From NCBI GenBank assembly GCA_973895155.1, contig OZ316893.1:12974359-13038358 (forward strand): 64,000 nucleotides of DNA, read 5' to 3'. The notes under the pieces are model-generated. The model was not told the DNA's origin and ran no database searches. It saw only the letters and a list, made by a program, of their open reading frames with translations. The position numbers were made by a program, and so were the translations under genes. The stretch comes from Marsupella aquatica. Lineage: Eukaryota; Plantae; Marchantiophyta. Numbering within the stretch: position 1 is the stretch's first letter; every line of letters starts with the position of its first letter. Positions 20,461 to 61,702 of this stretch are shown in pieces.

Positions 20461-22608
20461 AGGGCCTCTTGAAGACATGTTCTCCATAAGGAAAGGAGGT
20501 CTCGACGAGTTGTTGAGGGTATAAATGACCTTGAGTTTAATCATCTTGTGGATCGTCATGAGGCTGTTGAGGCTGAGCTTATTGCAACAGCTAACAGACA
20601 AGTATCCTTGGATGAAGAAGAAATTGTAGTTTTTCAGGAGATGGCAATGTTGACAAGAAGTGATAGTGATGATGATGATGTCTGGGAAGATGAAGAAGAT
20701 TCAGATGAAGAGTGAGAATGTGCCTATTGGGACAGGAAGTACTGATTGCTCTTTGGTGATAGTGTTTTTTACGCAGTTTTGAATTGAAATGCATGATCGG
20801 TCTGGGGTGAAAGGTTCTGAGAATGCCTATGAGACACAAGGGAATAGAAATATAGCAACCAACAAAGCTATACTTGACCGGTCCGTAGAAACTGCTCCAA
20901 GTGATTTAAAGTATGTACTCTATCCCTATATAGTTTTGAATTTATGCCTTGACTTTATTACTAATGGTTCACACTCATGACATTGTCAGGGTGATTGCAG
21001 TTTACAGGGAGAGGCAAGGCACAAGCGGTCAAAAGCAAGGTAAAGGGGGTCTAAACCTGGCAATATTAGTACCCTTATAATACCATCAACTAGTACTTAG
21101 AAGGTAATTAAATGAAGCATTTGCTTCACATGTTTGGGCACACACTGGCAAGATCTAAGGAGAGTTTGTATTACATCTACGGTCGAGGGAGGAAGAAAAG
21201 GTAGGTGAACATTAAGCGAATGGATTCAAAACTACCGCCAAATTGCACATCCAAATCAAGGGCTCAAAGAAGAGGAACAGCGGAGGAAGCATCTAGGCCG
21301 TTTAGGGAACTTGGACCGTGGGGGGGAACAAGTAGAACTCCCGCTATGGATTCCCCCTCGTTCATTCTCCTTTCCTGCCAAAAGGCTGTGCATTTTGTGG
21401 CCGCAAGGAGTCTAGCTCCACCATCGTTGCCAAGTCTCTAAGCGCATTTTGTGGCCACAACAATTGATGGTGGAGGGTGGACTCTGTTCTCGTCTACTTC
21501 TGTGAAATGGTGTATGATGTTCCCGTTCTCGTTGATGATTTTTGTTTTGCGTATGGCCACATTGAACATTCAGTAGCTTGTAGTGAACTACAAGTTGATT
21601 TGAGATTGATTGGCTAATGCATTTCATGTGTAGAAATCTTAGAGGAATCATCAAGCTATAGTTGAGAGCTTATTGCAAAGGAAGCAATCACCTGGGCTGG
21701 GGCCGGACATGAGCGAAAACCTCCTCAGCGCGCGGGCTCTGTGAGATAAGGATGTTTATGAAAGAAGGGTTAACTAACCATAAATTTTAGAATTTTTACA
21801 TTTAAGATCTCAAATGAGGCTGAAGAGGGACCTGAAGACTACTTTGAAGTGGTATGAGACTTTCAAGCCCATCAGAGGTCAACCCGGATTGATATTAGAG
21901 AAGGAGGATCGACCCGAAACTTTTTACTATAAGCCGTGATGAGATATAAAATCTTATACCGCGACTCTATTGAACAACAGCTGTCCATTGCCAAAGTTTT
22001 TAAAACCATAAGTCAAACACAGGCACGACCAAAGCAGAATCCGGATATAAGGAAGGAGAGTCGATCCGGCCTCTCACACCTCTCAAAGCCGAACTTAGTA
22101 GGCTTTGAGTTCCCAAGCGCATTAGGCTGTTTAAGCAGTAGAGTGAGGAGGCTCTACCCTTTTGGTAGAGGATCTTGGGTCCGGATTATAGGACCAATCT
22201 TGCATTGCATGATGAGAGCCTGGATATGAGGGTACTGACTAATTCGTTGTGAGGGAAATGCCTACTCCACCGCTGGAAGTGAAGGCAGGAAGTTTTAGAT
22301 CCTGATCGTGGATACATCGGTTGTGAGAAGGGAGGCCAGGTCGAACCGGACATCACCATTGCAGGACCGATTGAGTCCAGATTTTCCCCACATTAGATGA
22401 ACCTGCATTGTGGTTGACAAAATCTTGATGAAATTCTTCGGAAACGATTTTTAGTTGATCAGAAACGCTGCTGCCAGGTCGACCCGGAGATTTGTACCAG
22501 TGGTCGACACCGAAGAGATTGAACATTCTGAAGCCGCATCATTGTTGAGCTCGCCGTAGAGGAGGCAGACCATTTACCAAAAATCAATTTGCTACTTCCA
22601 GAAATCTT

Positions 22609-37175: not shown

Positions 37176-37178
37176 GTC

Positions 37179-41950: not shown

Positions 41951-42772
41951 TGTGAGATAAGGATGTTTATGAAAGAAGGGTTAACTAACCATAAATTTTA
42001 GAATTTTTACGTTTAAGATCTCAAATGAGGCTGAAGAGGGACCTGAAGACTACTTTGAAGTGGTATGAGACTTTCAAGCCCATCAGAGGTCAACCCGGAT
42101 TGATATTAGAGAAGGAGAATCGACCTGGAACTTTTTACTATAAGCCATGATGAGATATAAAATTTTATACCGCGACTCTATTGAACAATAGCTGTCCATT
42201 GCCAAAGTTTTTAAAACCATAAGTCAAACACAGGCACGACCAAAGCAGAATCCGGATATAAGGAAGGAGAGTTGATCCGGCCTCTCACACCTCTCAAAGC
42301 CGAACTTAGTAGGTTTTGAGCTCCCGAGCGCATTAGGCTGTTTAAGCAGTAGAGTGAGGAGGCTCTACCCTTTTGGTAGAGGATCTTGGATCCGGATTAT
42401 AGGACCAATCTTGCATTGCATGATGAGAGCCTGGATATGAGGGTACTGACTGATTCGTTGTGAGGGAAATGCCTACTCCACCGCTGGAAGTGAAGGCAGG
42501 AAGTTTTAGATCCTGATCGTGGATACATCAGTTGTGAGAAGGGAGGCTAGGTTGAACCGGACATCACCATTGCAGGACCGATTGAGTCCAGATTTTCCCC
42601 ACGTTAGATGGACCTGCATTGTGGTTGACAAAATCTTGATGAAATTCTTCTGAAATGATTTTTAGTTGATCAGAAACGTTGCTGCCAGGTCGACCCAGAG
42701 ATTTGTACCAGTGGTCGACACCGAAGAGATTGAACATTCTGAAGCCGCATCATTGTCGAGCTCGCCGTAGAG
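41951..42772 (+). repeat. 3' LTR, left segment
   Basis: Near-identical to 21740-22561. Confidence 0.95.
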
Positions 42773-43632
42773 CCTTGGGCCCTCACTCTTAGCATATTAA
42801 GTGAACCCCCCTGAGAACAGAACCCCCCTTGTACCCCTTCTTAATATTTTTATTGTCATTAAAATATCTCTTGTTAGTATAAAAATATTAATTTTCACTG
42901 TTAAATTTGACCCTTTTGTAACTTATAAAAGAGTTTTTTGAGTAATAGAAAACACCCTTGACTTTTTAAAATTATGAATGTCATATAACATGTAAACAAT
43001 TCAAAAACATAGATGGTATTTATACTTGGACACTTGAGAGTGGATCCACTATGCTCAGGTATACTTTTATATAGGTCAATAAAATTAAACCAAATAATAG
43101 TATCTTTGGTTGCTTATAGACCTCATAAAAGTGAACTAAATTAACACTAGAAGGATCTAACAAAGAGAAGATTATGCTCTACTACCCTGGTCAGGAGGAA
43201 TAATGGCATGATTGTATACTAATGCTAAAATAATTTATCCTGAGATTGGGCCTGAGATAAATAGGGCACGCCTTCAACCCTTTGCACCAAATGTTCAGTA
43301 AAGTTCTTGGCAGCTTCTTTTGAACCTGATGCATCAAACCATAGATTAATAGTTGATTTTAGACAATACTCATAACACAAGGAAATCATTACTCAAAAAT
43401 ATGGAAATAGTACCATCAGATTTTCTTTGGCTGTAATTATTACTTAGACATGGTGGGTAATTTTCCTGTCATCTCTGCAATCAAACAATTGATTACAATA
43501 TAAGAGACAATATCAAAATCATATTCAAAGCCTTTCATAGTAATCACATACTTGAAGTCTATTTGGGGAGAACATAATTCGATTTGGCATACATACAATA
43601 ACATTGAAAGTTGCTTACCCTATTGTATAAGA

Positions 43633-46600
43633 TTATTGAATTTTGTTTTTGGCAAAATTATCAAGAGCAACTGCATCATCTGGATGCAATTGAAAAATTC
43701 CTGGACATAGTGGATCCACTGTCAAGTGTACTGTTGATATAATACAGTCCAAATCGATGAATTGTGGATCACACACATTGTAGGCAAATTTATGCCTACT
43801 AGTTCCAATCTGAGAAAACCATTGGAACATAATTTTACATGCCTCCTCACCACCAGGCCTATCAAGCAAATCCAAATCACTTCTTGCTCTGTCCATTTTC
43901 CCACCATATTTTTTGTGTATAGATTGAATTCTGCCTATCCACCACATATATTTTGGTGTCGTACTTGAAGACATTACCACAACTGCACCTTTTGGTCTCT
44001 TCGGATTTGGAAGAGAATCGTCTGGTCTACTGCCACCTCTCTTTCCTCGTCCTTTTCCTCTCACTATTCGTGAAATTGCTTCTGAACTTCTAGTTTCAGG
44101 AGCACTGTATGTATCATCTAGGAATAGTACTCCACAGTCGGAACCTACTGTAACAAACATTGTTTGAGCACCTGCTCTAACATTAGGTTTGTCCACTAAA
44201 TTATTGAAGGAGTGATTTTGCTTTATCCGAGTTAATCTGTCTTTATTGAGGAGAGGGTTGAGGGTCAACTGGCTGACCAAAGTACTTTTGTAAATTGATC
44301 GATTTCGGTATTCTACTATTGGCTTCACATCCTGTTTTGCTGCTCCATATATCAAGTCAGAATGCATGATCCCCATGGTGGCCTCCATTTGAGCAGCAAC
44401 TCCCTCTACATCTGGGTCTGCATATATCAAAAGTTGTTCTATTGGGATAGGAGACTCAGAGTCCTCTTCTGCAACTTCTGTTTGAGCCAATAAGGATGCA
44501 CGCTCATGAGAGGTTGTTTGACCTTCCTCAGATTCCTCCACATCCCGCCCTCCATCTACTAATGTATCAACATTCACATCACACCAACTACCAAACTTGA
44601 CCCCTTTAGCTTCCATCTTCCATGGGGAATTCCACCACACCTTGTCTCTGCAAGATGTGGAAGGGTTCATCTGTAACTCAGTGCACGCATTTTGGGCAAG
44701 TTGGAAACCTTCTTGTAGAGCAATCACTATTTCTTCATTTGTTTCAATCCCTGCATAGTCTATTTGATCTGCTACAATAGGAATCCCTATCGGGATTGTA
44801 GTGAGCATCATCCAAATGTTTTCATGTTTTTAGTGGCTCTTCCCTGCACCCATCATTCCTTCAGCCAGATCCATTGCAGCCAATCGATTTCGATTGGTAG
44901 CACATTCTACTAACTCAGCCAAGTCATAACTTCATTCATGACCATTCATACCTCCTACAGCAGAGAAAAACTGCTCACAAACATCTGACCCAGTCAAATG
45001 CAATGGCACTGGAAGATGTCGAAAATTGTCCCTAAATTGGATTACCAATAGGACCACAAAATGAACTGACATCTGAATGTCAAGGAAGCTTTGCATGGGA
45101 ATGCAATTTTTTGTGAAACTGATTGGTTGTGTATTCCCTCCCACTGAATGGTTTCCATGAAAGCACCATTGACGCCATAGTCTAAAGAAGAACCCAACCT
45201 TCCCACAATGGACAATCCTCTGTCGCAAACTCAGACTAGTGTTCAGAAATATGTCAATGTAGTCTGCACATATCCTAGTGTAAACTTCTGTTCCAAGAGT
45301 CTGTTCAACTCTTGCATCACCACGTTGACGAAGCATCCGTAAGGAGGACTGTACTTTGCGGCTACATAGTCGTTGTGCACTAGCCCAATTTTGCCTATCT
45401 TTCCTTGACTTGTCCTCTTCATTCAAGCCATGATCACTATTCAGGTACAATTTGTAACAGGTTATGATGTGACTGAGGTTCGCCATTTCTGCTCCTAATT
45501 TCAAAATACGAGAAGTGGAATCCAATGGGTTCACTAGCTTCTTCCCATTATGAATAAAGTCTTGATCATGCAACCCATATGCATGGATCAATGGTCCAAC
45601 AGTGGTCATAGAGTGGGTCAATTTCCAAGCTTCCCACCTCAGGTCCTGCCTTGGCCCCGGTATCCCACTTCCAGAGTAGTCTTCCAACATAAGCTTTCTC
45701 CTCCGTGCATCCCCATCGCTAGCATGACCCAATAAGGGTCCCACTGACTCTAGGCAATGTGTAGTCCACAGTGACGCTAGGCTATTCCATTGTCGCCTGA
45801 CCCATGGAGCATCAAACTTGTTACATGTGCCAATCCCCATGATGCATAATCGAGGAAACCCAGCAACAAGTGCATTTACTATCAACATCTTGCCTGGTGC
45901 GCTACAACATAATTGTCAAAGGCATCTGCAATGTTGTTGAAGCCAACTTCTCCTTCCCCCACCAGGATCTCCAAGCCAACACTACACTCATGGTCAATTT
46001 TTGTCCCACAAAATCCAAGAAGGGTGTCATGTTTGGGCAACCATCTGCAATCAATAGCAGGTGGGCTCTTCATTAGTTGTGTTCAATTTTTGTGTGTACC
46101 ACAAAACAATCTTGAGCAAAAAGAATAACCAGAGCAAGAGGAGGAAATGAGTAGTCACCTCACAGTCCTCTTCACACAAGTCTCATCCTCTGCCAAAAAG
46201 CATGGAATGGGTCCTTGTATATTTAATCGAGCTTTCAGTTTGGAAAATATTTCCGCAACAAACTGAAATTGCTCTGCATGAATTCCAGCACGAAACACTG
46301 CCATGCCTCTTCGGTCCCGTTGAAGGGTGTTGATGGTAGGACCAATTCCATTGGTTGCAAGACAATCAACAACTCGCCTTCCACCATGTAAAAATAGTGT
46401 TTGACAAAGGAGCTTGGTTCCCAGCTTAAATCGATATCCTATCTTTTCCCTATTGATGTTTTGTGCTATGTCAGACAACATATCCCATAGAGCTCCTCTC
46501 CCACCAAAGGCACCTCGTTTGTGTGCCAATATTATTGAGTGACAAAATTTCAACACAATTGCTTTGTTTGGTTCCTCATAGTGAAGACACGGCTTCACTA

Positions 46601-48361
46601 ATATTGGGGACTAGAGCCTTTGCCATGAGCAACTTGTGACTCAAGATTCTTTGCAATTTTCGCTCTCTCAAAACTTGGTTCCTGTAACTTTTAGCATGAT
46701 ACTGGACCTCTGGAATAGTCAAGTAATCTAAGCGCCTACCTTTCCCAGTTGTTCTAGAACCTCTTTTCTCAAGAGCTTTGTACTCCCTATAAACCCTGAG
46801 TCGAAAATCCTGCTCTGTTTTTATGCTAAAACACTACGAGCAGGTCAAATCTATAAACCCACCACCAAGTTCTGATATTCGTCTACAATCTTTGTGTCTA
46901 AATAAACCAGAGATCACACAACTTTCCTGAGTTATCAAACACCACACCTCTGCCCTCACTATGGGCTCTGCATACCAGTTGCCATCTAATTTAAGCTGGT
47001 CATTTAAGATCTCCTTGATAGGCCTGGTATCTGAACCATATTTCACCACATCACGCCATAGACCCCAACATAGTAAAGAGAGATTGTCAAGTATACCTTT
47101 GTCTTTTGAACTAGAATTGGAAGCTCCTCCACTTGAGGGGCGAGTTAAGAACCCAACTATTTTTTGTTGTAAACTTGACATCTCTTCCATCTGGCGCACG
47201 AGGTCTTCCAGGCCGACCACTATGCACTGGGTTGCCCCTAGCAGGCCTTTGACTTCTTGTGACATAATTGAGATGACTCAAACCTCCCACATGGGCTTCC
47301 AAATTGGACTCTAGATTGCGTTGTTTTGGAATCAATGTCAGGTTTTCAGCACAAAACTCACAACGAAGCTTGAACTTGGCCAACTCTATAGGCTCTTTGT
47401 CCACATCACCTACTACTGTAAATGTGTCTTGCCCAACAATCCCACCAACAATCTGAGCTGAGTTGATCTTCTCCACAATCTTGACATGTTGATCAAGTAT
47501 GGCTCTATCATCCAGAGTACTAGCTTTAGCTCTCTGAGCAATCTCTCTGTGATCCACTTTCTCACCCCTGTTAGATGCTACACGTCGAGCATGCTTTTTG
47601 GATGGCAAGTGTTTCACTCTGAAGTTTGTAAACACATTATTGACCATAGTTTTATCCACACCCTTCACATTGCTACATGCAACTGCTTGATATCTGTAGT
47701 CACACTCGCAACACTCAATATGCCCACGAGGCACACCATCCTTGTCCCAGGTTCTGACTTTCCATTTGTGGTCCACACACTTAAGAAAAGTCATCCACTC
47801 TCTCAACTTTGTCACAGAAGTTTCCCATGCTATCTTGAGGTCCTGAGACATCAATTCAGACTTTAGGCTGATTTGAGGCTCAACCTCCTGGGATGAGGGT
47901 CCACCTGTAGGCTGGTTCTCTTGGGATGGGGCCCTGGATGGGGCACTCGCAGGCTGGGTCTCTTGGGATGGAGATCCACCTGCAGGCTGGTTAGAGGGTT
48001 CATCTATTGTAGGAGTACCAACTTGGTCTCCACTAGATGTGCTACCAGGTCTATTGGACGCATGGCTGCTTCCAAGAACTTGTTGTGACCCATTCTGCAC
48101 ATCTCCTTGGACAAAATTGTTGGGGTATTTTGGGATAATGACAATCTTTCCACCACAATCCTCTACTAGATTGTACCTCTCAAATTTGTCCAACATTCTA
48201 CAAGCAAGGTTGATGTCCATGAAATGGAACTCAAAGTCAAAACCTGACTCCAAGTTCTTTCTAGCATCATAAAAGGTTTCACCAATCTTGTAGCTATAAG
48301 ATGTCAAGGGTTTACGTTCCCCTGACTCTGAGTCTGCTTGAAAAACAGTGGTAGGCGGCAT
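43633..48361 (-). pseudogene. P-element/THAP9-like DDE transposase with N-terminal zinc fingers; intron(s), frameshifts and stops
   Basis: Successive minus-strand ORFs give CCEC..H..H and CEFC..H..H fingers, GPTINTLQR, LAEDET (D1), HASDGD (D2), QDFIHNGKKLVNPL (DxxH motif), DRQNWASAQRL and GSDVCEQFFS (E). GT-AG intron 46158-46045 joins VR|WLP. Confidence 0.72.
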
Positions 48362-51300
48362 CCTCTGAGTCCCACGTTTAATTCCCTATCCAATTGACAT
48401 ATGCTAAGGGCATAGGCCTGCAAACATAGAACAAGACAAGAGAAAAACACCACAATCAAAATGGACACAATTGGAACACCTCAAAGAGTTATGGGTTACT
48501 TTGTAAGGACCCATTCAATGACAATAGCATGGGCATTTTTGAATTTTTGGCTTCCTACAAGCAGCCTAAGGAAACCCACATGTCAAGACCGCATCCACCA
48601 GACCAATTCCACAAGGGCCTTGCCCCATCCCGGCCATTTCTCGTGGTAATTGGCTTGTCTAAGATCCATTGCAGCTTTCTCCTTTCGGGTGGGAAGGGAC
48701 GTACCCTTTGCATGCAAGGACTCTGGTTTCAGCGTAAGCACAAGAGAGTATGAGATCTACACATGGCCATTTAAGCTTGTCCCAGTTGAGCTTGTCCTAG
48801 TCTGTGCTGGGTCCATGTGTAGTCGGGGCCAGGCCCATCACTCCAATCTCTCTCCTTGACATGTGCAATGGGTTGTTTGGAATTTATTTACTCACAGACT
48901 CGCTCAGAGAGGCTGGACCTTGCTTGAATAGCGACATCCCTTGGACAACCCAAACCCTATGGCTAGGCTCTAAGCAATCCTTACCCCCCCACTTCCAGGC
49001 TACCTGCACCTGCTTCGCCTCCAAGGAGCGCTAGATTGCCAGGGATGAAATCTGGCAAGCTCCACTGAGGGCATTACTTCCCCAGTGGTCTCCTTGGATT
49101 TGATGTACCCTACAAACAATCCTATATCTACAGCAAAAAGACAAAGCATAATTCACAAAACATAATGAAATGCTTACCTGAGCAAACACACAAACCCCTG
49201 TTTGTGAGCAGATTGATAAAAAAGACAACAAGCAGGAATCAATAGTACAAGAGACAACAAGCACGAATAAGCAGCAGTGATTCATCACATACTTGTGTAT
49301 TTGCAATGACTGCTTGAACAAAAACTAGATCCACATTGGAACTCGACCATGATAAGCCTGCTGCAGACAAACAACAATGAGTGAATGGAGATGCACGAAG
49401 CAACAACTAAATTCCTGGACTTTCTTGGCAGTGTAAAAGCTAGCAATGGACAAAACAGAGATAACAAGCAATTAGAAAACATACCTGAAGTATAAAAGTG
49501 CCAACAATAACTCGAACAGGGGTGGCATTCATTGATAGTAACTATTCTTATCTGCAATAAACTTCAAGCCCTACAAATCCACCAATAAAGAGAATCTTAC
49601 AGGATATCAACAGGATATATACCACGGCTAAAGAGCTCACAGGGCAAGAGAAAAATCTACATGGGGTACCTAATATCCCACAACACACTTGATGCACATA
49701 TAGGACGGCAAGACTCAAAATCTACCGATGCAAAATACTAGACAGACTAGCTAGTAGACAATCTAACTTGTCTGAGAATCTGCATGGAGCCTTTCTATCA
49801 TTTCAATGGCATCATAAGGCTTGTCAATCCTCAATAAATGGATATATAGAACAACCACCTACAAGCTTTTTCTGCCTCTGGTTTATCCAGACGGTTGCGA
49901 TCCAACTTGACTCCAACAAAGAAAAGCCCTTAATCTCCTTGTGCAAATCACTGACGCACCAAAGGCAAGAGCAAGGGTGTCCTTTGTTTGCTTACAAAGA
50001 AACCCTCTCCTCCTCCTCTGTAGATGCCAAGCGCTCTTCCCTAGCTGATTCTTGGTCTACATCTCTCCTCTTTGTTCAGCTCTTCTCCTCCGTGGCCTGG
50101 TCACCAGCAACCTCCAACAAACTCCTGCATCCCGTCCTGCATGCCTTCTTGCCTAAGGCAAATCATTCAATGAATCAATAAATCAAAGAATTTCTGAAAG
50201 GCCACATAATGTTTTTGAGCAATTCCTGTACTCTCTGAATAATGCAGTGGGATACTACTATGACAGATTGATAGTATTCTTCAACATGCACTTACAAGAA
50301 CTTAAAGTTGGCAGTAGGGTTGTTGACGCGATTGAGAAGCTGCACGCTATGGTATGCTGTGGTATGCTACCAGAGAATTTGTTGTTTTGTAGGGACCCTG
50401 TGTGCCACTAGAAAGACAATGTAGTCGCATATCACTAACTGAACATCAAATTGTGTAATGATCGGCATAGATTGTAGACCCGATTCTATATGGGAAATCA
50501 ATCTGCATGTAAATGCGTAAGAATGTGACAGAGAACTCAAAAACCACCTTGATCAGCTGGACCTTCAGATCACTCGATCTACAGCACCGTCTGTAGCACT
50601 CCCTTGATGCTAGATCCCACTACTGTAAAGTCCACCAACCTGTACAACACGACAATGTTTATTGGATGTGAGGAAAACAAACACCACCACTTAATGCAAG
50701 CGGTAATGCAAGCCTAAAAAGCTGGCAATAACATCCCACATTGGACAGATGGCGCTAAAGAATGCAAGCCTGAAAATATCACTTGGAATAGTCGCAACTC
50801 AAGAATCATCGCCTACTTAATTTGCCTATCCCTACTAATGCTATGGTTCACTCATCACGTGAAGACGTTTTAATAAGAATGCAACTATGTGACAAGGTGA
50901 GGCGGATCAGATAGAGGTACTTCACGCTAGAAGACAGGGCCAATGCGAATAGGGTGAGATGATTAAAAAGTCCACACGAAGAGAAATGTACCCGGAATGT
51001 ATCTACTCTAGACTGCTAAGACATGGGGCTCGGGGCCGAAGGTTTCTTAGCTGATTGTAGAGGTGAAACCAGGGGCAAAACATTCTGAAGACTAGCCAGT
51101 ACGTGAAGTCATGACCAGGTCCAGTCACATGCACCGGCTCTTAGTTGCAGACCAGCTCACTTCGGCTCCGATCGCATGCACCCAGCTCTTAGTTGCAGAC
51201 CAGCTCACTTCCGCTCCAATCGCCGCTCCAATCCAAGCCTTGCTCCGGGCCGACTCCTATGCTTGAACATTTGGGTCAAAGGTAGCTAGTAGCTCACATC

Positions 51301-52034
51301 TCTAGCTCACTAAAACTCAGCTTCAACCAGTTGGCCATGCTCGAACATTTGTTGATCCACAAAACTTGGCACAATGTCTTCAGCCCTACACTACGGAAGT
51401 TTTCCTGCAGCCCCGCCTACAGCTCACACCTTCAATGCACGTAGGTTGTAGGTCCAACTTCCAGCACCTTGCAGGATAGCAGGAACATTGTACAATCATA
51501 GATCGAACGTCCAGGTTGGCTTCTCCCACTTGAACATTTGAGTTTCAACTAGGTTACACATCACCCCATGCATAAGCACAATTATAGCAAAATGTATGTG
51601 AACACTTTGGTGTCTGTCAGCCAAAGTGAATGTACTTGAGGTGAGGACTGACAATAAGAGGGAGTATCCAAGGTCACATAATGAGATGAGAACTGACAAT
51701 TAGAGGGAGTATCCAAGGTCCATAGTCCTAACTGGTACATGGGCCGGTATGACCTTTTGACCCTTGAGCATTGTAGCTTAGTTCAATGAAAACAGCAAAA
51801 AAGAGTGCTAGGAACTCAAGGAGAAACTTTGTAGTTGGGCTTAGGTTAATTAATGTATCATTAATCATGCACTAGTAAGAGGGCATCAAATTAAAGGGGT
51901 GCACAAGCCCTCCATGTCCCCAAGAGGTTTGACAAGAGTTTGAACGTACTCACCATCTGGCTCCACTCTCCCTCCCACTCTCCCTTGAAACTTAAAATAA
52001 AACAAGTTGTAACTATTTAATGGGGAATATGATA

Positions 52035-52505
52035 GACATGACACAACTTAACCATAACTTGTTTGCCTACAAGTTACTGCACTAAGCCATTCAAGCACAG
52101 GTTCAAGTTCCATTCATTTGTAATAAGAAAACTCAAGTTATCATATTGCGTTACAAACTGCAGTTCTTAAAAGATACTTGCCTTTGCTACGGTCAACAAT
52201 AATCAAGTTTTTTCATAACAAAAAATTGCAACTTACCTGAGCTATTAAGACATGACACAACTTACCATATAATTATATTACAACTTGCAATTCTCTAAAG
52301 ATACTTAACCATAACTTGTTTGCCAACAAGTTACTTCACTAAGTCATTCAAGCACAGGTTCAAGTTCCATTCATTTGTAATAAGAAAACTCAAGTTACCA
52401 TATTGCGTTACAAACTGCAGTTCTTAAAAGATACTTGCCTTTGCTACGGTCAATGATAATCAAGTTTTTTCATAACAAAAAATTGCAACTTAATTACCTG
52501 AGCTA
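52035..52505. repeat. ~210-bp tandem duplication downstream of the dioxygenase ORF
   Basis: gacatgacacaactta...accataacttgtttgcc...ttacctgagcta occurs twice (from ~52035 and ~52249). Confidence 0.9.
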
Positions 52506-52574
52506 CCACTCTACAATGATTAATATAAAGCACAACAATGGATCACATCCAAAATGCAAGCTCAATCAATTTGC

Positions 52575-54080
52575 TTAATCAATGTCCCAATCAATGTATT
52601 TGGGATGAGATTTGGAAGCCATCCCATTTGATAAAATTTTACATAATCCTTGACTTGAAAGTTTGGCTCTCTTAGCATGTGCAAATGCTCTTCCCAACTT
52701 TTGATTTAATGCCAAGGCAACCACATATACTAGATCTATTGTCAAGCTTCTTAATGAAGTCCCATGTCTATCCCTTCCTCTAAAGAAAAATGCATCCCCG
52801 TCAAGAAGTGGCATTTGAATACCATAGTCCATAATAGTGAAATATCCTCTTTTACAATTTCTTGTCAAATTAGAGACATATGCCATTGTCCAAATTGATG
52901 TATCAGCATCTTGGTGCATAGTGTTGCAATAATTTTTACTCAAAAACATAGGGTATCCTGGTACTCCTCTTTCAAAGGCTTTAGTGTTATTGAAACAAGC
53001 TCTAAATTTTTTCTCTAGTCTTAGAAAAGGTTCATTCAAAGAAATAAAATGATCCAAGATAGGAGAAAAATGTCTTCCAAATAAAACAAGCAAAACTTCA
53101 AAAAGTAAACGATGAGAAGTTCTTTCATGCAATTCTTCTAAGCTAGGTCTGCAAAATGGTGATCCATTTGAAAGTTTTTTCATATTTCTATAATAGGTTA
53201 TATTCTCCACCTTGTTTTCTACACGATTGATTAATGGTCCCACTGCTCTCATATTTAGTTTTAAACTACTTCTTTTATCCATGCGAATAACAGGATTCTT
53301 AAAATTAAATTGAACTTCAATACAATCCCTTACAATTGGTCTTGCTTTGAGGTCTAATGCTCCCTTTACACGTCCTCCAATATAAACATTTTCTTGTTTT
53401 GTCACCCAAGGTTCTCTTTCAATCCACAACTCCATTTTTGTAGAATGATGCATAACATAAAAGTTCTCAGGAATAGGTGTCCATAATATAGATGGACATC
53501 TATTTTTAGTTTTTCTCTTATTTTGTTGAAGTGGTTTTTTCAGGTCACTTGATATCAAATATGTCCCATCATAGGATTTACAATTTTCTTCATTTTGTCT
53601 CCCAAACATTTTAATACCTCCATCTTTTTGCAACCGTGGTATTAAAAAAGTATCAAAATGATGCTTTTGAGATTCAAAAAAATTATGTTGATCTTTTCTT
53701 AATTTTGTAATACTTTCTTTCATTCCTCTAGGTAGCAAGTCCAATGCATATCGTGTTTCGAACATAGAGGATAACAATGTCCATATCTCAGTATTATAGA
53801 GTATTTTCCATCTCTTAGCTTTCTTTAGATATTTATATCCTGAAAAAAATTTATTTCGGCATATTGTTTCACATGTGTCATCATAAGTTTGCAAACCATA
53901 ATTAAATAGAAACACTTCATATACTACCCATTTAAGGAATATTTGTAGATTAAAGTAGTCAAATCCCACTATTTTGATAACATCATAAAAATATAGTTCA
54001 CAGTCTCTTAAGTTCAAGTTATTGGATTTGTTGAGTGTGGCCCGGAGTGTGGTTGGGAGTATGACATTCCCTGCAATCAA
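52575..54080 (-). CDS. Protein with a C-terminal TET/JBP-like 2OG-Fe(II) dioxygenase domain
   Basis: 501 open codons in AT-rich DNA. The segment SKNYCNTMHQDAD...GYFTIMDYGIQMPLLDGDAFFFRGRDRHGT shows the N..HxD.D, G.F..DY, GD and HGT pattern of TET/JBP-like DSBH enzymes. An AG acceptor at 54072-54071 suggests an upstream exon. Confidence 0.65.
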   Translation of the reverse strand: MIAGNVILPTTLRATLNKSNNLNLRDCELYFYDVIKIVGFDYFNLQIFLKWVVYEVFLFNYGLQTYDDTCETICRNKFFSGYKYLKKAKRWKILYNTEIWTLLSSMFETRYALDLLPRGMKESITKLRKDQHNFFESQKHHFDTFLIPRLQKDGGIKMFGRQNEENCKSYDGTYLISSDLKKPLQQNKRKTKNRCPSILWTPIPENFYVMHHSTKMELWIEREPWVTKQENVYIGGRVKGALDLKARPIVRDCIEVQFNFKNPVIRMDKRSSLKLNMRAVGPLINRVENKVENITYYRNMKKLSNGSPFCRPSLEELHERTSHRLLFEVLLVLFGRHFSPILDHFISLNEPFLRLEKKFRACFNNTKAFERGVPGYPMFLSKNYCNTMHQDADTSIWTMAYVSNLTRNCKRGYFTIMDYGIQMPLLDGDAFFFRGRDRHGTSLRSLTIDLVYVVALALNQKLGRAFAHAKRAKLSSQGLCKILSNGMASKSHPKYIDWDID

Positions 54081-54139
54081 TCATCGAGTCAATAACACTA
54101 ACATACAATATTTGTTTTACATACAATCAGGCATAAATC

Positions 54140-54616
54140 CTACATGAAATATTTGCATAGAGGGAAATCCCCATCCCAAACATGAAGTCCATATGTACAT
54201 CCCAAATCAAAATTTTCATACAAATTAATAATCTTTGTCACTGTTCTTGGTAAAGTTGTGCTACACATACCCTTGCTCCCATCTTTAGTTTTTGAAATCA
54301 CTCCTCTGTCCCCTGCTCTTGCTCTATTCTCTTCCTTGTTTTTTTTCCTTGGCTGGAACGGTTTCTTGATGTCTTGCTCAAACTTTCGTTTTGAGTTTCT
54401 TGACAGAATTTGTTGAAGCTTGCCCTCTTGCTGGCCATAAACCGGACCATCTTCATGCGAACGGTTAACCTTGGGATTAAACTGATCCATGAACTCGTGC
54501 ATGTGCAATTCTTTTTCTACTCTCCTTACCACAACACGTTCTTTTGGACCAAAAAAAGTACCAAAGGTGGAGTCATTTGGTAGATGCTTCATCTTCTGCT
54601 TCATCTTATTCTCCAT
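54140..54616 (-). CDS. Basic 158-aa ORF, probable upstream exon of the dioxygenase gene
   Basis: Same strand, ends ~70 bp before the acceptor; Lys/Arg clusters (NSKRKF, PRKKNK) resemble a nuclear localisation signal. No canonical GT donor identified. Confidence 0.4.
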   Translation of the reverse strand: MENKMKQKMKHLPNDSTFGTFFGPKERVVVRRVEKELHMHEFMDQFNPKVNRSHEDGPVYGQQEGKLQQILSRNSKRKFEQDIKKPFQPRKKNKEENRARAGDRGVISKTKDGSKGMCSTTLPRTVTKIINLYENFDLGCTYGLHVWDGDFPLCKYFM

Positions 54617-56102
54617 CCTTACTACTTACAATTAGGTAACACTTTTCTGCAAAAAAAACAATACCCTCATTCTTAGATCCTACCCAACAAAACATCCCAC
54701 AAAACATTTTAAACATATTTAAGGGCCAGGTCAGATCAAAGAGCACTGCCATGTTCATTGCCAGCAAATAACAAGAACTAGAACAAAACAAATAGCGTTG
54801 GGGATGACACTATGCTAAACTGTAAAGTAAGTGGGAAACGGGGTGGGAAAGTAAGCAAGACCCACAAAAAATTGTATTTGCAACCCAATTCAATCTTCAA
54901 TGGCAATACTTATGGGCCCAACAAGCTAGATAATATCATAGAGGGAATTGATACTTTTTATCTAATAAATGACAATATGACAAGGCCCCAGTCAAGGCCC
55001 CAGTCAGGGCTGTGAATGTAAATTTCCTGCATCTGGAATTAATATGGAGAAGCAAGCTGGAGACGCCTTACTATAAAAATAATGCAATTTTTTCATTTTA
55101 CTATGAATAGGCTGTCATGTTGCAATATAGCATGGGAGAAGAGAGCGGGAACATGAGGAGTAATACACATCATCAAAGCAGGCACAAGAGTGAAGAGTAC
55201 CATCATAAAACCCAGGTTGCATCCAACCTGTGCGTACTCATCACATTGCTTTGCCGTGGAAAGCACTGACCAAGTTCACACATTCATGTGTTGTGCAGTT
55301 TCAAACTCCTGCGTGTAGAGAGCCAGACTGAGCAAGCACCTGAGTACATCAACTAGTGGGGCGCGCATGCAACAATTCAAACTACCGGACAGGATGCAGA
55401 GCCGCGCCAAGAGCAAGTAGGAACTTGACGCAATAGTTTGCACGCATAGAGTAAGGCCCTTGAGTAAGCACCTTCAAGAACGCTCTGTCTCACTTCCCAC
55501 ATTAGCATCGCTGATAGGAAAATGGGAAGGTAGGAAATCTGCTTGAAGAAGCACTTTGCTCACATCTCTTCCGTTACATCGCTGAAATGTATAGATTTGG
55601 GAGCCTTTATTGATTTTGCCTCTACCTACTTTGGCAATTTCTAGTCCAGCCTACTACATCAATCGTCACCAACACCGGACCTGTACTGCCTACCGACATT
55701 GGACTTGTCCCCGCCACCAACATCGGCCTTGGTGACCCATGACTGTGGACCAACCCGGGGACCAATCCTGCATCCCATTTTTGGACCTCCTCAGTCCTCA
55801 CCAAACCTTCATGGCTGTTTTCACCGACTTGTAGACTTTTAGTTTGACAATTTCTTGACTGTTCTTCACCGACTAGTGTGGGTGCTGGTTGTTGGCAACT
55901 ACAAGTTACTGCGCTCTCTGTCGTTTCCTCATCGTTCATCATGATGATCTTATTCCCAATCTATTATGTTGGCGGAGGAAATAGTCTTGCTCTCATTTAC
56001 TCATAGTTTTTCACACTAGATCTTATTTTTGATCTTATGCAGCTGGCGGAGGGAATAGTCTTGGGGCCAGATGTCTTTGATTAGAGGACAAAAGGATCGT
56101 CG

Positions 56103-56501
56103 TTGTTTTTTATTCTTTGCACCATTCGTGGTCTTTGCACAATTGGTTGTCAGCCGCCTGGTCAGCCGATCAATAAGGACGGCACACCAAATGGAAATGG
56201 ACTCATCCTGGCCAACGCTACATGGCAATTTGATGACTTCAATTTTGACAATGATAGGAATGTGTATTTGGTCAATGCTGCAAGTGGCAACTTGATACTG
56301 AGGGTCTCGCCCGACGAAAGTCATCAGCAAATCATTGCCGGAGACATGAACTCAACCCTGATTGCGCAACCAACTTCTGTCACATTTTGGAGGGGGCCAT
56401 GTGACCAAAACACTCTGTACGTGACTTCTGCAGGAGGGTTGCTTGCATCGATTAATGGATCCATCATCGATGGCGGTCAGGTTATGGCAATGAGAGAATG
56501 A
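56103..56501 (+). pseudogene. Captured C-terminal fragment of an SMP-30/gluconolactonase-like beta-propeller, fungal type
   Basis: PINKDGTP..G...FDDFNFD...IIAGDMNSTLIAQPTSVTFWRG..D..TLYVTSAGG...INGS...GGQVMA matches the C-terminus of secreted ascomycete propeller proteins as I recall them. Confidence 0.6.
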
Positions 56502-56503
56502 TG

Positions 56504-57116
56504 TCAGTCATGTTCCGCACCAGATCTGTGTTTTTGCTTTAGCTCTCGTAGTAGCATCCCCAATGGGGATCTCGACAGACTGCAACACAGGGGGCAAAGA
56601 CGAAAGGAATGGCAATGGCCCGGACTTCTAGAGCCGTTGCTCTGCCAATTCTCATCACCAGGTCCCAATCTCTCGTGGCTCCGAGGCCAATATTGTGAGG
56701 CCAATATTGTGAGGAAAGATTGTGGCCCCAACTACAACGTTATTACCGTGAACCGCATCTACTCCGTAGATCATGGGAATTGCCAGCCGAGTAGACAATG
56801 CTTGCCTCTGGAACCTGTCGATCATTTCTTGCCACAAAATGGCATTGTTCGGAGTGGGCGTGCTTCCTCCCCCATTGAGCACACTACTGACCATGTATCG
56901 GTACACATTCGAATCTTTCATGACGATTGTTCGTTTGATCTGCATCATCTGCCCAATCTTTTCAGCCACCGTCATCCATTTCAAGAGATCCTGCACCCTC
57001 GCCTCCACGGGTTGGCTTCCATCCTTGTATAGATTGTAAGCCACCGTAGCATTGAGAATATGAAAACATAGGAGTATAACACAAAGTGCTCGTCTCGCTG
57101 CTGTGGTCCCACCCAT
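56504..57116 (-). pseudogene. Captured N-terminal fragment of a plant GH3 beta-glucosidase/exo-glucanase
   Basis: Signal peptide, [59 protein letters not shown] 14-bp tandem duplication shifts the frame, which resumes GATRD...ATALEVRA...[11 protein letters not shown]. Confidence 0.9.
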
Positions 57117-58754
57117 GGCGATTCAGTGGTCCCTGGCAGCTTCATGTTCTTTCTTTACTAGTTCTCTCGATTGTTTGCCTCACTCATCACATGGGAAGTA
57201 CGAGAGGTTTCAACACCAAGGAGCACCAACATTGTACGATCTAGACAATCTAGGAGGTTGGTTTTCTCATTGAGTTCCTTCTCCTAAAGTTCCAACAGTC
57301 CGAAATAGTGTCGAATAGACGATCATTTATGAACAGTATTGATTGACCAAATCACACTCTATTAATTGAGGAGACGCAAGAGATTAGAAGCATAGTTCTA
57401 GGTGTGGTTTTCCTTATCCGAGAAGCGGCTATCCAGCCATGTCTTTGCATTTATTAGCTTAGCTTTTGTCTTTGTATGGATCGACGACATAGTATGGCTG
57501 CGACAAAGTCACCACTCTGAAATAATATCAATTGGATTGTGCTATCACTGATTGGCATAGTTAACGTTGGTCTATGCCAAATTTGTCTACCACACGCATA
57601 GACAACGTCGATTGCTGATGACCAAGGTAGGCTACCAAATTGGCACTCACGTCCATGCCATTTTTGTCACCTTGTAGACCAGAAATCCCAGGCCATAAAG
57701 AGACACACCGTCACGGTAGTGTAACAATTTCTCCCGGTACTTAAATTCAAATCTTGGGCAGATTGCACCGATTTGCAATCTGTGAGTCATTTGCAATGAG
57801 AAAAAGAGGTACGTGGAAATAGTGACGACTTCTGGTCCGGATGTAATAGCCTCTGTGAATGATCTAGCTATCTATCTATCCACTAGTATATAATTGCTTG
57901 AGCTGCAATAGTCTGGGACTGTTGCCTCATTGATGGGTCACGATTTGCTTCTGACCTTTGTTTGTGTTTTTATTCTAAGCAGACACTACGTTTTTTTAAC
58001 ACACTATCCATTCTGGTTGTCAACTACTGCCGCCTCTTTATTGGTGAATCTGCTCCATGCATGTAAGTTACCGGTATTTTGTACACAAATTCAGAATGAT
58101 AATGAGCTATTAGTGCTCATTGTAAATTTGACGTTAATGTGTATTCTCGTTGCTTATTTTGTATTCCTATTTGCCTGAATGACAACACGCACCAGATGGC
58201 TTGATCCTTGAATTGCTAGTCGTGTCTGAGTTGAGAGACCATCTTGGCATCTATCGGCAATTGGAGGATCCCTTTTTGTAAGGAAATCTTTGCATTTGGC
58301 ACACAAAGCTGCTTGAATGCAAAGAAGTGTGAACAGCAAAGCCTTCAAACTAAGCAATTTAGTTCTAAGCCTTCGATGAATTTTCTTGAATTTCCCTCTA
58401 CTTATCAATGAGGAGAACGTGCTGAAGGGATGTGTGTGTTTTTCAGAGAGGCAACCACCTCACTGCAGTCGGAGTGTTGGATTACATTGGCTACCTTGTG
58501 AAGGGACATGTTTGTCCACAAGTACGTACATCTATGCCCAATTTACATAGCATATAACTTGATGTTGATCCTGTTTCTGGAAGGTATTTTACGCCTTACA
58601 TTACAAAAGCGCAACGATTGAGAGTTGCCTTGTTAGTATTGTGTGTTAGTACACGGTAATGACACCGTCTCTTCTGTTTCACATTTAAATTGATAAAGAC
58701 TTGTTAGAGTGCAGCATATACCAGAGTTATTGAGGATTGATTACGGTGGGACAG

Positions 58755-58859
58755 ATTGACTTGACAAAAGGGGGCCCTGGAACCTACCGCCTGCATCTCA
58801 ATGGATCAGAGGTTGAAGCCAAACTTCAAAGTATTCGTGATGGTGGACTCCTTGTGTAG
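58755..58859 (+). pseudogene. Captured single exon of eukaryotic acetyl-CoA carboxylase
   Basis: AG|IDLTKGGPGTYRLHLNGSEVEAKLQSIRDGGLLV*|GT corresponds to the plant ACC1 segment just before the biotin-carrier domain. The last codon is TAG, probably from CAG. Confidence 0.8.
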
Positions 58860-61702
58860 GTATATTGTTTTATCCACTCCTTGTGTAAGCATTGGACTAC
58901 CATACTACGTCAGAGCTTCCAACTTAGTGTCGTGCTAGCTTTACCAGCATAATTAGTTCTGGAATTTGGGCCTACTACTGTAAAATTTCAGAGTCTAACA
59001 AGTGCTGCACTTCATTATATTGCAGCTGGATGAGAATAATTTTGGCCCTTAAGAGACCTCGTGCAGAGAGTTTCTCCTGAGACGGATGACAAAGGGTGAT
59101 CGAAATCAAGGATATACATTCCTCTATGGATAAGTATATCTTTAGCCCATATTCCCTACTTTGTAAGCTAGTACATATCTTCACTTACGTCTTCCTGTTT
59201 TAGGCTACAATATTCCTGTTATTTCCTCTTAGTCTACCGTGCTCAGACGTCACTTGATGAGTGCAGTATAGCAGTCCTGATAGCAGTACACAATTCTAGA
59301 TCATAAGGGATTTGTGGCCGTTCTTGAAAACAGAATGGAAAAGGGCACATTAGTAAGGCATTGCTTGTTTGTTAAATTGCATAAGCACAAATCCGGTTGT
59401 CCAATTTCTGATTGATACTTTGGACAATATGCAATTTGACGACAAGGATCTAGAATGATTAAAATAGTGATTGATGTGGCAACGATCTAGAATGATTGAA
59501 ATAGCAACTGATGTGGTAGCTATGCCGGCAGAAAGAAATTTAGCAGGTGCTGAGGATTTTGTTCTGGTATGGCTTGTGCGCAGGTGCCCGCCAAGTGGAT
59601 TTTGTGTGAGCTCACTATTCGGCTTCCAGGTCCTTGTGGGATGAATTACTTCAAGTTTAAAAGGTCAGATAAATAAGACAAGCTCATCGCTGGACAGCGT
59701 CGAAGTAGATGAAAAGCATGTCTATCATGTTCAAATGTAGTTGGAGTTGGACTCACATTCTTGGATCAGGACTGTTGCTGACTTTTTCAGTTTGTTGTTT
59801 TATGGTAGGGCTCATGACTTACCTCAGTGATGCAACCGGACCTACAAGACACTTGCTAGTGAGGACAAATTTCACACAAGAATCAAGGTCTAATAGCGAT
59901 TCAAATCTGTTAGGCTGTATTTCCTAATTGTTTAATTCAAAGATGCCCTAGCTACAGGTGTCCAGGCTAGGCTCTGACATTGACTAGTATCTCTTAGACT
60001 GGCACTTTTTGGTTTATTATGATTGTCAAGATTGGCCCTCTTTTCACTGTATTCATTCACATCATTCATACGGGCACTTTCTATTTGTTCATTGTGCTCT
60101 TTTCACTGTACTCACAATGATGCTGCTTTTTTGACAGATTTACTTGTCATTTTCTATATTCCAATAGGGACTGGAGCACTGTTTATGTTGTCCATATATG
60201 GGTCACATTCAAGTCCTCAGAGTGACCTATGGTACCAGCAGTAAATAGACCTAAAAGTTAACATTTTAAGAGTCTGGATGTTTACATCGCGGTGCTCTCT
60301 CGTTCTCGCTCTTGTTGGACCATTAATGTTGCTTGCAAGTTTCCATGTAAGCTTGAGATCCAAATCTTCTTGATCTCCATGCAAACTACTATTCACCTGG
60401 TTGATATTGTTGGACTACCAGGTATTTCTGCTTTCCACATTTGACAGCGTGGGCAAAGGGTGGTGTAAAAGGCAGTTGGTGTAGTTTAAGCTACTTTGCA
60501 ATCTTAGCCAAGATCTTAGCATCTTTGTCAAATTCTCATAGGCTAAATTTAGGTTTTAGCTAAGTTCTAGTGCAATTTTGGGGAAGTCGAGGGTCAGTAC
60601 AAGGTTAAATTAAAAAGGTGGAGTATGTTTAAGAGGCAAAGCCATGGACAAATTAAGGACACTATAATTTCTATATAATATATATAACATTATCAAAAAC
60701 ATTTTAAAATCTTCAGAAAAATCCCCCAAAGCTGGTTAGTTTGGCGGTACACCTGTAATAAAAAAAAGCAGTGGGGGGCAAACATACAAAGCAAGACTTT
60801 CTATTAGTGTATCCATTCCTTCACTACTACACCACAGCCCGCATCAAAGTTATTGATTCCTCTAAGTTTGATCAGTTCAGCTGAGTGGCATACTTCATCG
60901 ATCTTGTAGTCACTACTACACCACAGCCCGCATCAAAGTTTGAGTGCAAAAAGGAATGCACAGTAATGAGGAATGACAGTTATGGTGGCTCTGAAATCAA
61001 CACGGTCAACACTGCAACGGGCACCACAAGCGGGACAGTGTAACTAGCATGACCAAGGTGAGGAAGCGCAAGGGTGATCCAATGAATGAGCCCTAGCAAG
61101 ACCAACCTGCTTACTACGCACACCTGCCTGATTTGAGAGAGAAAAAGTCTTGACCTTCTAAATGGGATCAATCCGGGGTTCACACCTTGGCCGACCCTAA
61201 AATCCTGAACCTCAACCAGGGCCTTAACCAAGCCGGGAACCAAACTCTCCCTAGAGGTCCCTGGTCCAGCATGTGGATGACTTTTAATTGCCCTCCCCCT
61301 GCCCCTAGCCTTCCCCCAAATCCATTCAAAACATGTTATGGGTGTGTTATGGAACTAGAAACTCCCTTCAAATTAAATTTTAATCAAGGATATCTGGGAT
61401 AGTGAATAACATTGAATTTATTAACCATTTTACTATTTGTACTTGTGTACCAATGAGGTGTTGACATGTGGACCAACCATATAGTGACACTTGTCATTCC
61501 AATTTTGAGTACCCTTGCATAACAAAATGTGGCATATGTTTAATAAAAGGCTTATTTCTTAGAATGTGCAACACATATATATTGGGACCTTGACTACTTC
61601 AAAAAATATTATAAAAATTACTTTCCATTCAATTAAAAATACCCTTGCGAAGTTCGCACATACTCCTTGTATTACTAATACTGAGGGCCCAGGGCCGTAG
61701 AG

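What the first reader, a model, noticed from the sequence alone, without database searches (positions are those of the whole stretch)
42773..61694. Giant P-like DNA transposon carrying a TET/JBP-like dioxygenase and gene cargo in a land plant
Seen: an 18,922-bp insert with 13-bp TIRs and an 8-bp TSD, bounded exactly because the empty site survives in the sister LTR. It holds a P-like transposase, a co-oriented HxD...H dioxygenase ORF and several captured gene pieces. Established: TET/JBP genes travel with KDZ and Plavaka transposons in fungi, canonical TET genes are not recognised in land plants, and some plant transposons encode anti-silencing factors (VANDAL/VANC). Inference: this may be an undescribed mobile system pairing a P-type transposase with a DNA base-modifying enzyme that counters or rewrites cytosine methylation.
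Basis: partly seen in the sequence, partly recalled or inferred. Interest (0 to 1): 0.93.

Follow-up and report, generated by a model that had tools for sequence, protein, structure and literature searches.

The report
P-type transposon carrying TET-like plant gene
A 19-kb jumping gene with a broken P-element-type transposase, in what is likely a liverwort genome, carries an unbroken gene predicted to fold like the TET enzymes that oxidise methylated DNA, a family reported absent from land plants, which likely helped some copies of the element escape silencing.

Summary
The insertion is real: 42773-61694, 13-bp TIRs (12/13), 8-bp TSD CCGTAGAG, empty site in the sister LTR. The transposase is dead here (3 stops, 3 frameshifts). 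A relative's model matches P-element transposase (Z 28.1, next 9.5), and the protein groups with liverwort sequences. The dioxygenase is an open two-exon 613-aa model. Every listed Foldseek row down to rank 21 is TET/JBP (CcTET, NgTET1, CMD1). It has 27 divergent relatives, none a named plant protein. HxD...H is kept, but the 2-oxoglutarate-binding RxS arginine is replaced in 17 of 18 aligned rows, so it is not a canonical TET.

Against a fixed pairing: a complete 6.1-kb relative (L003; 26-bp TIR, 8-bp TSD) has no dioxygenase, and contig depth hints that transposase-like DNA is 5-13 times more abundant. No second insertion carrying both genes was shown. Transposon-borne TET genes are published for fungi, and 2OG oxygenases for red-algal elements. 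New here: the P superfamily as carrier, a land-plant host, and an altered co-substrate pocket. Verdict: new variant of a known kind.

The parts
42765..42772 (.). left target-site duplication CCGTAGAG
42773..42785 (+). left terminal inverted repeat (13 bp)
   Evidence: positive control
43633..48361 (-). P-superfamily-type DDE transposase pseudogene (about 1,500 codons; 3 stops, 3 frameshifts, intron 46158-46045); EDET, SDGD, DxxH and EQFFS motifs present
52046..52505 (.). tandem duplication of about 200 bp (95%) downstream of the dioxygenase stop
52575..54070 (-). dioxygenase exon 2: helical domain plus TET/JBP-type double-stranded beta-helix; R266, H389, D391, D393, H439 (numbering of the 501-codon ORF)
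54071..54270 (-). predicted 200-nt GT-AG intron (phase 1)
   Evidence: no transcript evidence
54271..54616 (-). predicted dioxygenase exon 1 (basic and charged, 115 codons)
   Evidence: inferred from in-frame splice signals
56085..56501 (+). captured fragment, weak beta-propeller (SGL-like) similarity
   Evidence: E 0.06; E 0.004
56542..57122 (-). captured, frameshifted 5' fragment of a plant-type GH3 beta-glucan exohydrolase
61682..61694 (-). right terminal inverted repeat (13 bp)
   Evidence: table 8 record 16
61695..61702 (.). right target-site duplication CCGTAGAG
22554..22561 (.). empty site in the sister (5') LTR of the host Ty3/gypsy-type element; the LTRs differ at 70 of 3,115 aligned sites

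Best explanation
This is a dead copy of a large cut-and-paste transposon of a divergent P-superfamily clade, and it carries an open gene predicted to be a TET/JBP-type iron dioxygenase that likely serves as an accessory anti-silencing enzyme of one sub-lineage of the family. Shown: the boundaries, the insertion into an LTR, the broken transposase, the open dioxygenase frame and its retained iron triad. Predicted: both folds. Inferred: the gene is a long-term resident of mobile DNA, not a fresh host capture. Its product would flip 5-methylcytosine into the pocket (Arg266, Asp393) and modify the methyl group, so that host methylation readers or maintenance no longer act on the element. Because the RxS arginine is gone, the co-substrate is probably held differently from canonical TETs: either 2-oxoglutarate through Tyr401/Arg444, or ascorbate as in CMD1. 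The GH3 and propeller pieces are neutral, Pack-type cargo.
For: Fold: all listed Foldseek rows to rank 21 are CcTET, NgTET1 or CMD1 (best E 1.8e-7). VIA Z 13.6-14.6 over 201-254 residues for CMD1, NgTET1, TET2 and CcTET, against 13.6 over 170 for the best AlkB. Atlas score 0.96 to Tet_JBP clusters. The best named viral match is a JBP1/TET domain protein. Family conservation among aligned rows: R266 10/10, H389 22/22, D391 21/22, D393 22/22, H439 20/20, which fits selection for iron and base binding in a deep family. Residence in mobile DNA: the gene lies inside the TIRs with no ends of its own; CG o/e is 0.26, like the transposase (0.29) and unlike the host helicase gene (0.49); none of 27 relatives is a named plant protein (20 of 27 looked up); several relatives are fragments or frameshifted on contigs of 0.7-4 kb. 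In X1, X2 and X4 contig depth over the dioxygenase equals that of the adjacent spacer (1.0-1.1x; 1.6x in X3), while the GH3 bin is 1.6-2.8x. This hints that the GH3 piece has a host donor and the dioxygenase does not (depth is a poor copy measure). The frame is open while the transposase and cargo are broken. A near-identical right end sits in another flank in run X2, which also holds the dioxygenase at 99%. Precedent: PMC12730594.
Against: L003 is a complete 6.1-kb family member without the gene, and 0 of 11 transposase loci (1.2-8.4 kb, mostly partial) hit the dioxygenase profile. Summed contig depth over the transposase is 4.9-13.5 times that over the dioxygenase in 4 of 4 runs, and depth at 42820 inside the left end is 40-80 times higher (table 4), so most related copies seem to lack a copy at 85% identity or more. 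No contig links transposase and dioxygenase at a second site. The open frame is not significant by itself (about 2.4 disablements expected, P about 0.09). The gene and the element are CG-depleted, and the sister LTRs differ almost only by transitions (67 of 70), so this DNA has not escaped methylation over its history. The RxS arginine (1/18) and the base-stacking aromatic (0/18) are missing. The model is modest (pLDDT 59) and Pfam scores are below cut-off.
Confidence: 0.5

Rival explanations
1. One-off passenger: the dioxygenase was picked up once, from another mobile element or from the host, along with the GH3 and propeller fragments, and does nothing for this transposon.
For: It sits beside true junk cargo. 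It is about single-copy while the transposase is multi-copy. L003 lacks it. Its GC3 (0.24) is lower than the transposase's (0.32-0.42). The open frame could be chance (P about 0.09). Kojima reports passive transfer of TET genes between transposon families (PMC12730594, passages).
Against: It is full length and co-oriented with the transposase, unlike the broken cargo. There is no depth hint of a donor copy in 3 of 4 runs. It is CG-depleted like the transposase. The nearest relatives of transposase and dioxygenase are about equally diverged (75% and 73% aa), a weak hint only because those records are not linked.
Confidence: 0.25
2. Accessory gene, but not a 5mC oxidase: the protein is catalytically dead or re-purposed (a methyl-DNA binding shield, or an enzyme for thymine, 6mA or RNA).
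For: The RxS motif, the base-stacking Phe/Tyr and the following His/Arg differ from TET2, NgTET1 and CMD1 across the family. AlkB structures come within 1-1.5 Z of the TET hits. CcTET also acts on 6mA (PMC12730594, passage).
Against: The iron triad is nearly invariant in 20-22 rows, and the Asp at the place of CMD1 Asp350 (which reads cytosine N4 and excludes thymine) is kept in 22/22. CMD1 is active without a 2OG-binding arginine.
Confidence: 0.15
3. Domesticated host gene: bryophytes own an unrecognised TET-like gene family, and this element engulfed the host's copy.
For: About single-copy in 3 of 4 runs; spliced gene model; deep family with at least four subclades.
Against: No named protein from annotated Riccia, Calypogeia or Adiantum records appeared among the dioxygenase hits, although their transposases did. 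Many relatives are fragments. Composition is unlike the host gene.
Confidence: 0.1

Closest known systems
TET/JBP-carrying fungal DNA transposons (Kojima 2025, PMC12730594; KDZ, hAT7, IS3EU, Harbinger, EnSpm, ESTA, Plavaka, Helitron)
   Same: A TET/JBP gene inside TIR/TSD-bounded DNA transposons, without ends of its own; close relatives without TET exist (hAT7); proposed anti-silencing role, untested.
   Different: Carrier is of the P superfamily (not among the 11 lineages listed); host is a land plant; the dioxygenase belongs to an unnamed family below Pfam cut-offs and lacks the RxS arginine; multi-copy co-mobility is not shown here.
Drosophila P element transposase (PDB 6p5a, 6pe2) and the P superfamily
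   Same: Fold of the catalytic core with its insertion domain (Z 28.1, 420 residues aligned, rmsd 4.2), DDE plus D(2)H motif, 8-bp TSD.
   Different: 12-14% identity; no THAP Pfam hit in 35 of 35 proteins; about 1,500 aa with a long C-terminal region; ends begin CC/CT...GGG, not the CA of canonical P (recalled); element 19 kb against about 3 kb.
Chlamydomonas CMD1 (PDB 7cy8; PMC7854593)
   Same: Top VIA row (Z 14.6, tied with NgTET1 and TET2) and highest identity (14%); green-lineage TET homologue without a working 2OG arginine; by offset counting Ser/Thr at the place of Thr337 (20/21), Thr at Thr399 (16/20), an aromatic at Trp358 (Tyr 15/22), Asp at Asp350.
   Different: Phe416, Arg418 and His249 equivalents are not matched; CMD1 keeps Arg410 in sequence; CMD1 is a host gene. 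The mapping is by sequence offsets, not by coordinates.
Red-algal giant Plavaka elements with PAG3 (bioRxiv 10.1101/2025.02.11.637652)
   Same: Large DNA transposon with an accessory putative 2OG oxygenase thought to modify its own DNA.
   Different: Different transposase superfamily and host; PAG3 is ParB-fused and was not assigned to TET/JBP.
VANDAL/VANC of eudicots
   Same: Plant DNA transposon with an anti-silencing accessory gene (as described in PMC12730594 and the Bostrychia preprint).
   Different: MuDR carrier; VANC is a sequence-specific binding factor (recalled), not a dioxygenase.

Membership tests
P superfamily (broad, catalytic core) | DDE triad with D(2)H motif | tested here: met
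   D723 32/32, D842 32/35, D894 35/35, H897 34/35, E1089 35/35 (P0003 numbering); the same motifs are in the window copy. Definition from PMC3698922 passages.
P superfamily (broad, catalytic core) | RNase H fold with the P-type helical (GTP-binding) insertion | tested here: met
   Model of relative L003 (pLDDT 88.6): Foldseek E 7e-11, VIA Z 28.1 against 9.5 for RAG1. The window's own broken copy was not folded.
P superfamily (broad, catalytic core) | TIRs and 7-8-bp TSD | tested here: met
   Window: 13-bp TIR, 8-bp TSD. L003: 26-bp TIR, 8-bp TSD; 1 of 200 flank shuffles gave any such pair.
Metazoan P / THAP9 family (narrow) | N-terminal THAP zinc-binding domain | tested here: not met
   No THAP hit at E 0.5 in 35 of 35 family proteins; other Cys/His clusters are present.
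TET/JBP dioxygenases | Double-stranded beta-helix with TET/JBP-type elaborations | tested here: met
   model pLDDT 59 overall, higher in the core.
TET/JBP dioxygenases | HxD...H iron triad | tested here: met
   H389 22/22, D391 21/22, H439 20/20.
TET/JBP dioxygenases | Upstream Arg and post-HxD Asp/Asn for base recognition | tested here: met
   R266 10/10, D393 22/22; correspondence to CMD1 Arg244 and Asp350 is inferred from alignment and offsets.
Canonical 2OG-using TET (TET2, NgTET1, phage TET) | Distal Arg (RxS) binding the 2OG C5 carboxylate, followed by an aromatic base-stacking residue | tested here: not met
   Phage TET RYSVVYY and P0080 RYSVVVV align with window VYVVALA; Arg in 1 of 18, Ser in 1 of 18, aromatic in 0 of 18. 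MAFFT shifts the phage row by a few columns, so the register is set by eye on the Tyr.
Canonical 2OG-using TET (TET2, NgTET1, phage TET) | Pfam Tet_JBP or 2OG-FeII_Oxy_6 above cut-off | tested here: not met
   PF20515 15.1 bits against a cut-off of 27; 0 of 27 relatives reach either cut-off.
TET/JBP dioxygenases | Oxidation of 5-methylpyrimidine in DNA | not testable with these tools
   Needs an enzyme assay.
CMD1-type (ascorbate-using) enzymes | Vitamin C pocket (Arg244, His249, Thr337, Trp358, Thr399, Ser414) | tested here: inconclusive
TET+ DNA transposons (Kojima 2025) | TET gene inside the element's termini, without its own TIR/TSD | tested here: met
TET+ DNA transposons (Kojima 2025) | Several independent insertions carry both genes | tested here: inconclusive
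   No genome held; run X2 shows a near-identical right end in another flank and the dioxygenase, on unlinked contigs.

The most novel reading that the evidence does not exclude
Bryophytes harbour an old, unrecognised, transposon-borne TET/JBP family, here on a giant P-type element, whose rebuilt co-substrate pocket uses ascorbate or another non-canonical co-substrate to write a modified cytosine on plant DNA: the first enzymatic source of oxidised or hypermodified 5mC in land plants and an enzymatic counterpart to VANC.
Probability: 0.17. Interest if true: 0.92.

Novelty: new variant of a known kind. Interest (0 to 1): 0.64.

Why it matters
[quoted passage not shown] This window gives a concrete, open candidate gene in a land-plant genome and 27 relatives, so the question becomes directly testable by expression and mass spectrometry. 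It extends the transposon-TET partnership from fungi to a further superfamily (P) and to a host lineage with heavy CG/CHG silencing. The family-wide loss of the 2OG arginine with a kept iron triad suggests chemistry worth measuring. Separately, the transposase defines a large P-superfamily clade without Pfam annotation in liverworts, ferns and a coral, with complete young members (L003, L005-L008).

Tried and rejected
No genome is held for this window, so copies could not be counted directly. The search for homologous proteins found nothing for the 501-aa ORF (0 of 7,591 candidates) and 2 proteins with the family profile. Sequence searches of PDB gave no TET hit with the ORF, the profile, P0080 or the phage TET, and no transposase hit with the transposase profile. 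Viral contigs gave no relative for the dioxygenase, P0068, P0080 or the transposase alignment; phage records gave none for the dioxygenase core and one weak Tet-like hit for P0080 (E 0.2). A recent viral origin is therefore unsupported but not excluded. No RNA holder was listed; this says nothing about expression. Runs X5 (share 0.06) and X6 were never laid, so nothing is drawn from them. Run X2 has little cover at 58.9-60.9 kb; no contig joins across it, so I draw nothing from it. My first nested-element scan missed its positive control because of an exact 5-base seed; the corrected scan passed the control and found 4 pairs against 0-6 in shuffles. The CHG deficit of the dioxygenase exon (o/e 0.39) is largely explained by codon content (12 observed, 14.7 in synonymous shuffles), so it is not used; the CG deficit remains (10 against 19.4). 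My first splice test was off by one base and was corrected. The careful transposase tree did not finish; the quick tree is quoted. Lanisha was considered and rejected: it is EnSpm-like with 2-5-bp TSDs. hAT, RAG/Transib and Mutator-like folds scored far below P; KDZ/Zisupton has no solved structure that I know of and was not tested. No complex was predicted. Literature: searches returned 0 papers; searches listed none on a land-plant TET gene or a TET-carrying P element (titles and abstract starts seen); one search was uninformative because 'tet' matched unrelated words. Iyer 2009, 2013 and 2014, Yuan and Wessler 2011 and Hashimoto 2014 are not held, and Repbase cannot be searched, so an earlier mention of moss or liverwort TET genes or of plant P elements cannot be excluded. 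Supplements of PMC12730594 were not opened and those of the preprint are closed; either could list related sequences.
Full report
1. Observation. It runs from 42773 to 61694, with 13-bp TIRs (12/13) and CCGTAGAG on both sides. The joined flanks match the other LTR of the host Ty3/gypsy-type element across one CCGTAGAG at 22554-22561. The two LTRs differ at 70 of 3,115 sites, 67 of them transitions, which bounds the age of the insertion from above. Contigs of four public DNA runs from two studies cover all 30 bins of the stretch. One contig of X2 follows the right end and leaves the window exactly at 61694 into another flank. The structure is not an assembly artefact, although one of these runs may be close to the window's source.

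2. Transposase. The minus-strand gene (about 48361-43633) aligns along the whole 1,529-aa Calypogeia fissa protein P0003 (44-60% per block; 71% in the core). It is dead in this copy: three stops and three frameshifts. A search for longer relatives gave 54 proteins, with names from Calypogeia, Riccia and Adiantum; one cluster includes the coral Oculina patagonica. In a quick tree of 26 rows the window groups with Calypogeia (support 99), next to Riccia, so the host is likely a liverwort; this is inferred, not shown. No family member reaches a transposase Pfam cut-off, but weak hits are to the TNP-like (P-type) RNase H and GTP-binding domains. Conserved motifs are EDET, SDGD, DxxHxxKK, DRQNW and an invariant Glu. 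A confident model of the intact relative L003 (pLDDT 88.6) matches P-element transposase with E 7e-11 and Z 28.1 over 420 residues, against 9.5 for RAG1. It is a divergent P-superfamily clade without a detectable THAP domain.

3. Dioxygenase. The 501-codon ORF extends through a 200-nt GT-AG intron to a basic upstream exon, giving an open 613-aa model (no transcript evidence). Pfam gives only PF20515 at E 0.024. The language-model search gives 0.96 to Tet_JBP clusters. A full phmmer scan of 1.84 billion representatives found 27 relatives at 23-73% identity. I looked up 20 of the 27; the only one with an organism name is from the amoebozoan Planoprotostelium, and the other 19 are unnamed or 'hypothetical' on contigs of 0.7-4 kb. 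Their hosts are therefore unknown. The AlphaFold model is modest (pLDDT 59), yet all listed Foldseek rows to rank 21 are CcTET, NgTET1 or CMD1. VIA ranks CMD1, NgTET1, TET2 and CcTET first, with longer alignments than AlkB, and the best named viral match is a JBP1/TET protein. In alignment A1, after dropping five N-terminal fragments and one near-duplicate, the iron triad, an upstream Arg and the Asp after HxD are almost invariant. Aligned with a phage Tet-like protein, the last strand RYSVVYY becomes VYVVALA: the 2OG-binding Arg and Ser are present in 1 of 18 rows (P0080 only) and the stacking aromatic in none. The CMD1 paper (passages and section 9) shows that a TET homologue can work without that Arg by using vitamin C. 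By offset, this family has Ser/Thr, Tyr and Thr at CMD1's Thr337, Trp358 and Thr399, but lacks Phe416 and Arg418. From memory, NgTET1 also has a Tyr at the Trp358 position, so that residue does not decide the co-substrate. Twenty-one rows form one group apart from the phage protein and P0080 (93/89, long-branch caveat).

4. Do the two genes travel together? For: the gene lies inside the TIRs with no ends of its own. It is whole while the GH3 and propeller cargo is broken. It is CG-depleted like the transposase. Depth hints at no separate donor copy in 3 of 4 runs. X2 holds both the dioxygenase (12 differences in 1,463 bases) and the right end in a new flank, on unlinked contigs. Against: L003 is a complete 6,096-bp member with 26-bp TIRs, an 8-bp TSD and one unbroken 1,520-codon frame, and it has no dioxygenase; its transposase is 52% identical, so it is a distant subfamily. 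None of the 11 metagenome loci hits the dioxygenase profile, though most are too short to test. Summed contig depth is 4.9-13.5 times higher over the transposase than over the dioxygenase; the tool warns that this is no copy number, and dioxygenases under 85% identity would be missed. The open frame alone has P about 0.09. The pairing is thus real at this locus, probably true of a sub-lineage, and not a property of the family.

5. Mechanism. Most likely (0.5): an accessory enzyme of a sub-lineage that modifies 5mC on the element's DNA and weakens host silencing. Shown: anatomy and conserved residues. Predicted: folds. Inferred: substrate, co-substrate, benefit to the element. Rivals: passive passenger (0.25), inert or re-purposed protein (0.15), engulfed host gene (0.1).

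6. Comparison with what is known. Kojima 2025 (PMC12730594; I read part 1 of 7 of the text and passages) lists 11 fungal transposon lineages with TET/JBP genes, none of them P and none in plants. The Bostrychia preprint (passages) describes a 2OG oxygenase on red-algal Plavaka elements. [quoted passage not shown] PMC11065753 (passages) places CMD1-like proteins in green algae. PMC3698922 (passages) supplied the P-superfamily features. PMC12344493 (passages) had nothing on plant TET genes. Earlier notes of this scan list many TET-carrying transposons in fungi, diatoms and Naegleria but none under 'moss' or 'liverwort', and none similar in sequence; they are unchecked leads. It works like a fungal TET+ transposon. 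It is a member of the broad P superfamily and of the TET/JBP fold clade, but not of the THAP-bearing P family or of canonical 2OG TETs.

7. Verdict. New variant of a known kind; interest 0.64. The principle is published, but the carrier, the host lineage and the altered active site are not in the papers I could search. Most novel reading: a transposon-borne land-plant TET family with non-canonical chemistry (probability 0.17, interest 0.92).

Noticed in passing
L003:192-6287: Complete, apparently intact P-type element: 26-bp perfect TIRs, 8-bp TSD, one unbroken 1,520-codon frame; a candidate autonomous member of a P clade without Pfam annotation.
   Followed up: yes
L005-L008: Four about 99% identical copies of another member; three share one right end (CCCGGGG... 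read inward) with three different flanks, one beside a cellulose synthase gene: recent activity.
   Followed up: partly
P0043, P0048: Two P-type transposases end in a PTM/DIR17-like Tudor domain (E 1e-8 to 1e-9), a possible chromatin reader for target choice.
   Followed up: no
P0035 cluster: The same transposase clade includes proteins named from the coral Oculina patagonica, so it spans land plants and cnidarians.
   Followed up: no
window 23826-26987: The 5' LTR is interrupted by a 3.16-kb insert with TG...CA ends and an ATATC duplication, like a solo LTR.
   Followed up: partly
window 62374-63492: The host LTRs contain a 372-aa ORF with a coiled-coil region and no Pfam family; a long ORF inside an LTR is unusual.
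   Followed up: no
window 30112-31251 and 37174-38838; 33587-34522: Two gag-like regions between the LTRs and a weak En/Spm transposase fragment (E 0.1): probably further nested insertions.
   Followed up: no
window 48586-49150: Upstream of the transposase, contig depth is high and many contigs leave the window at 48586 and 48655: a repeat shared with other elements.
   Followed up: partly
window 43030-43062 and 43697-43729: 33-nt inverted repeat (88%) between the transposase 3' end and the subterminal region.
   Followed up: no
window 4441-7884: Host gene: two-exon DExH helicase with a DSHCT domain, resembling chloroplast ISE2 (name recalled).
   Followed up: partly
P0080: A Planoprotostelium fungivorum hypothetical protein is a TET/JBP-type protein with an intact RxS motif and the nearest named relative of this family.
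   Followed up: partly
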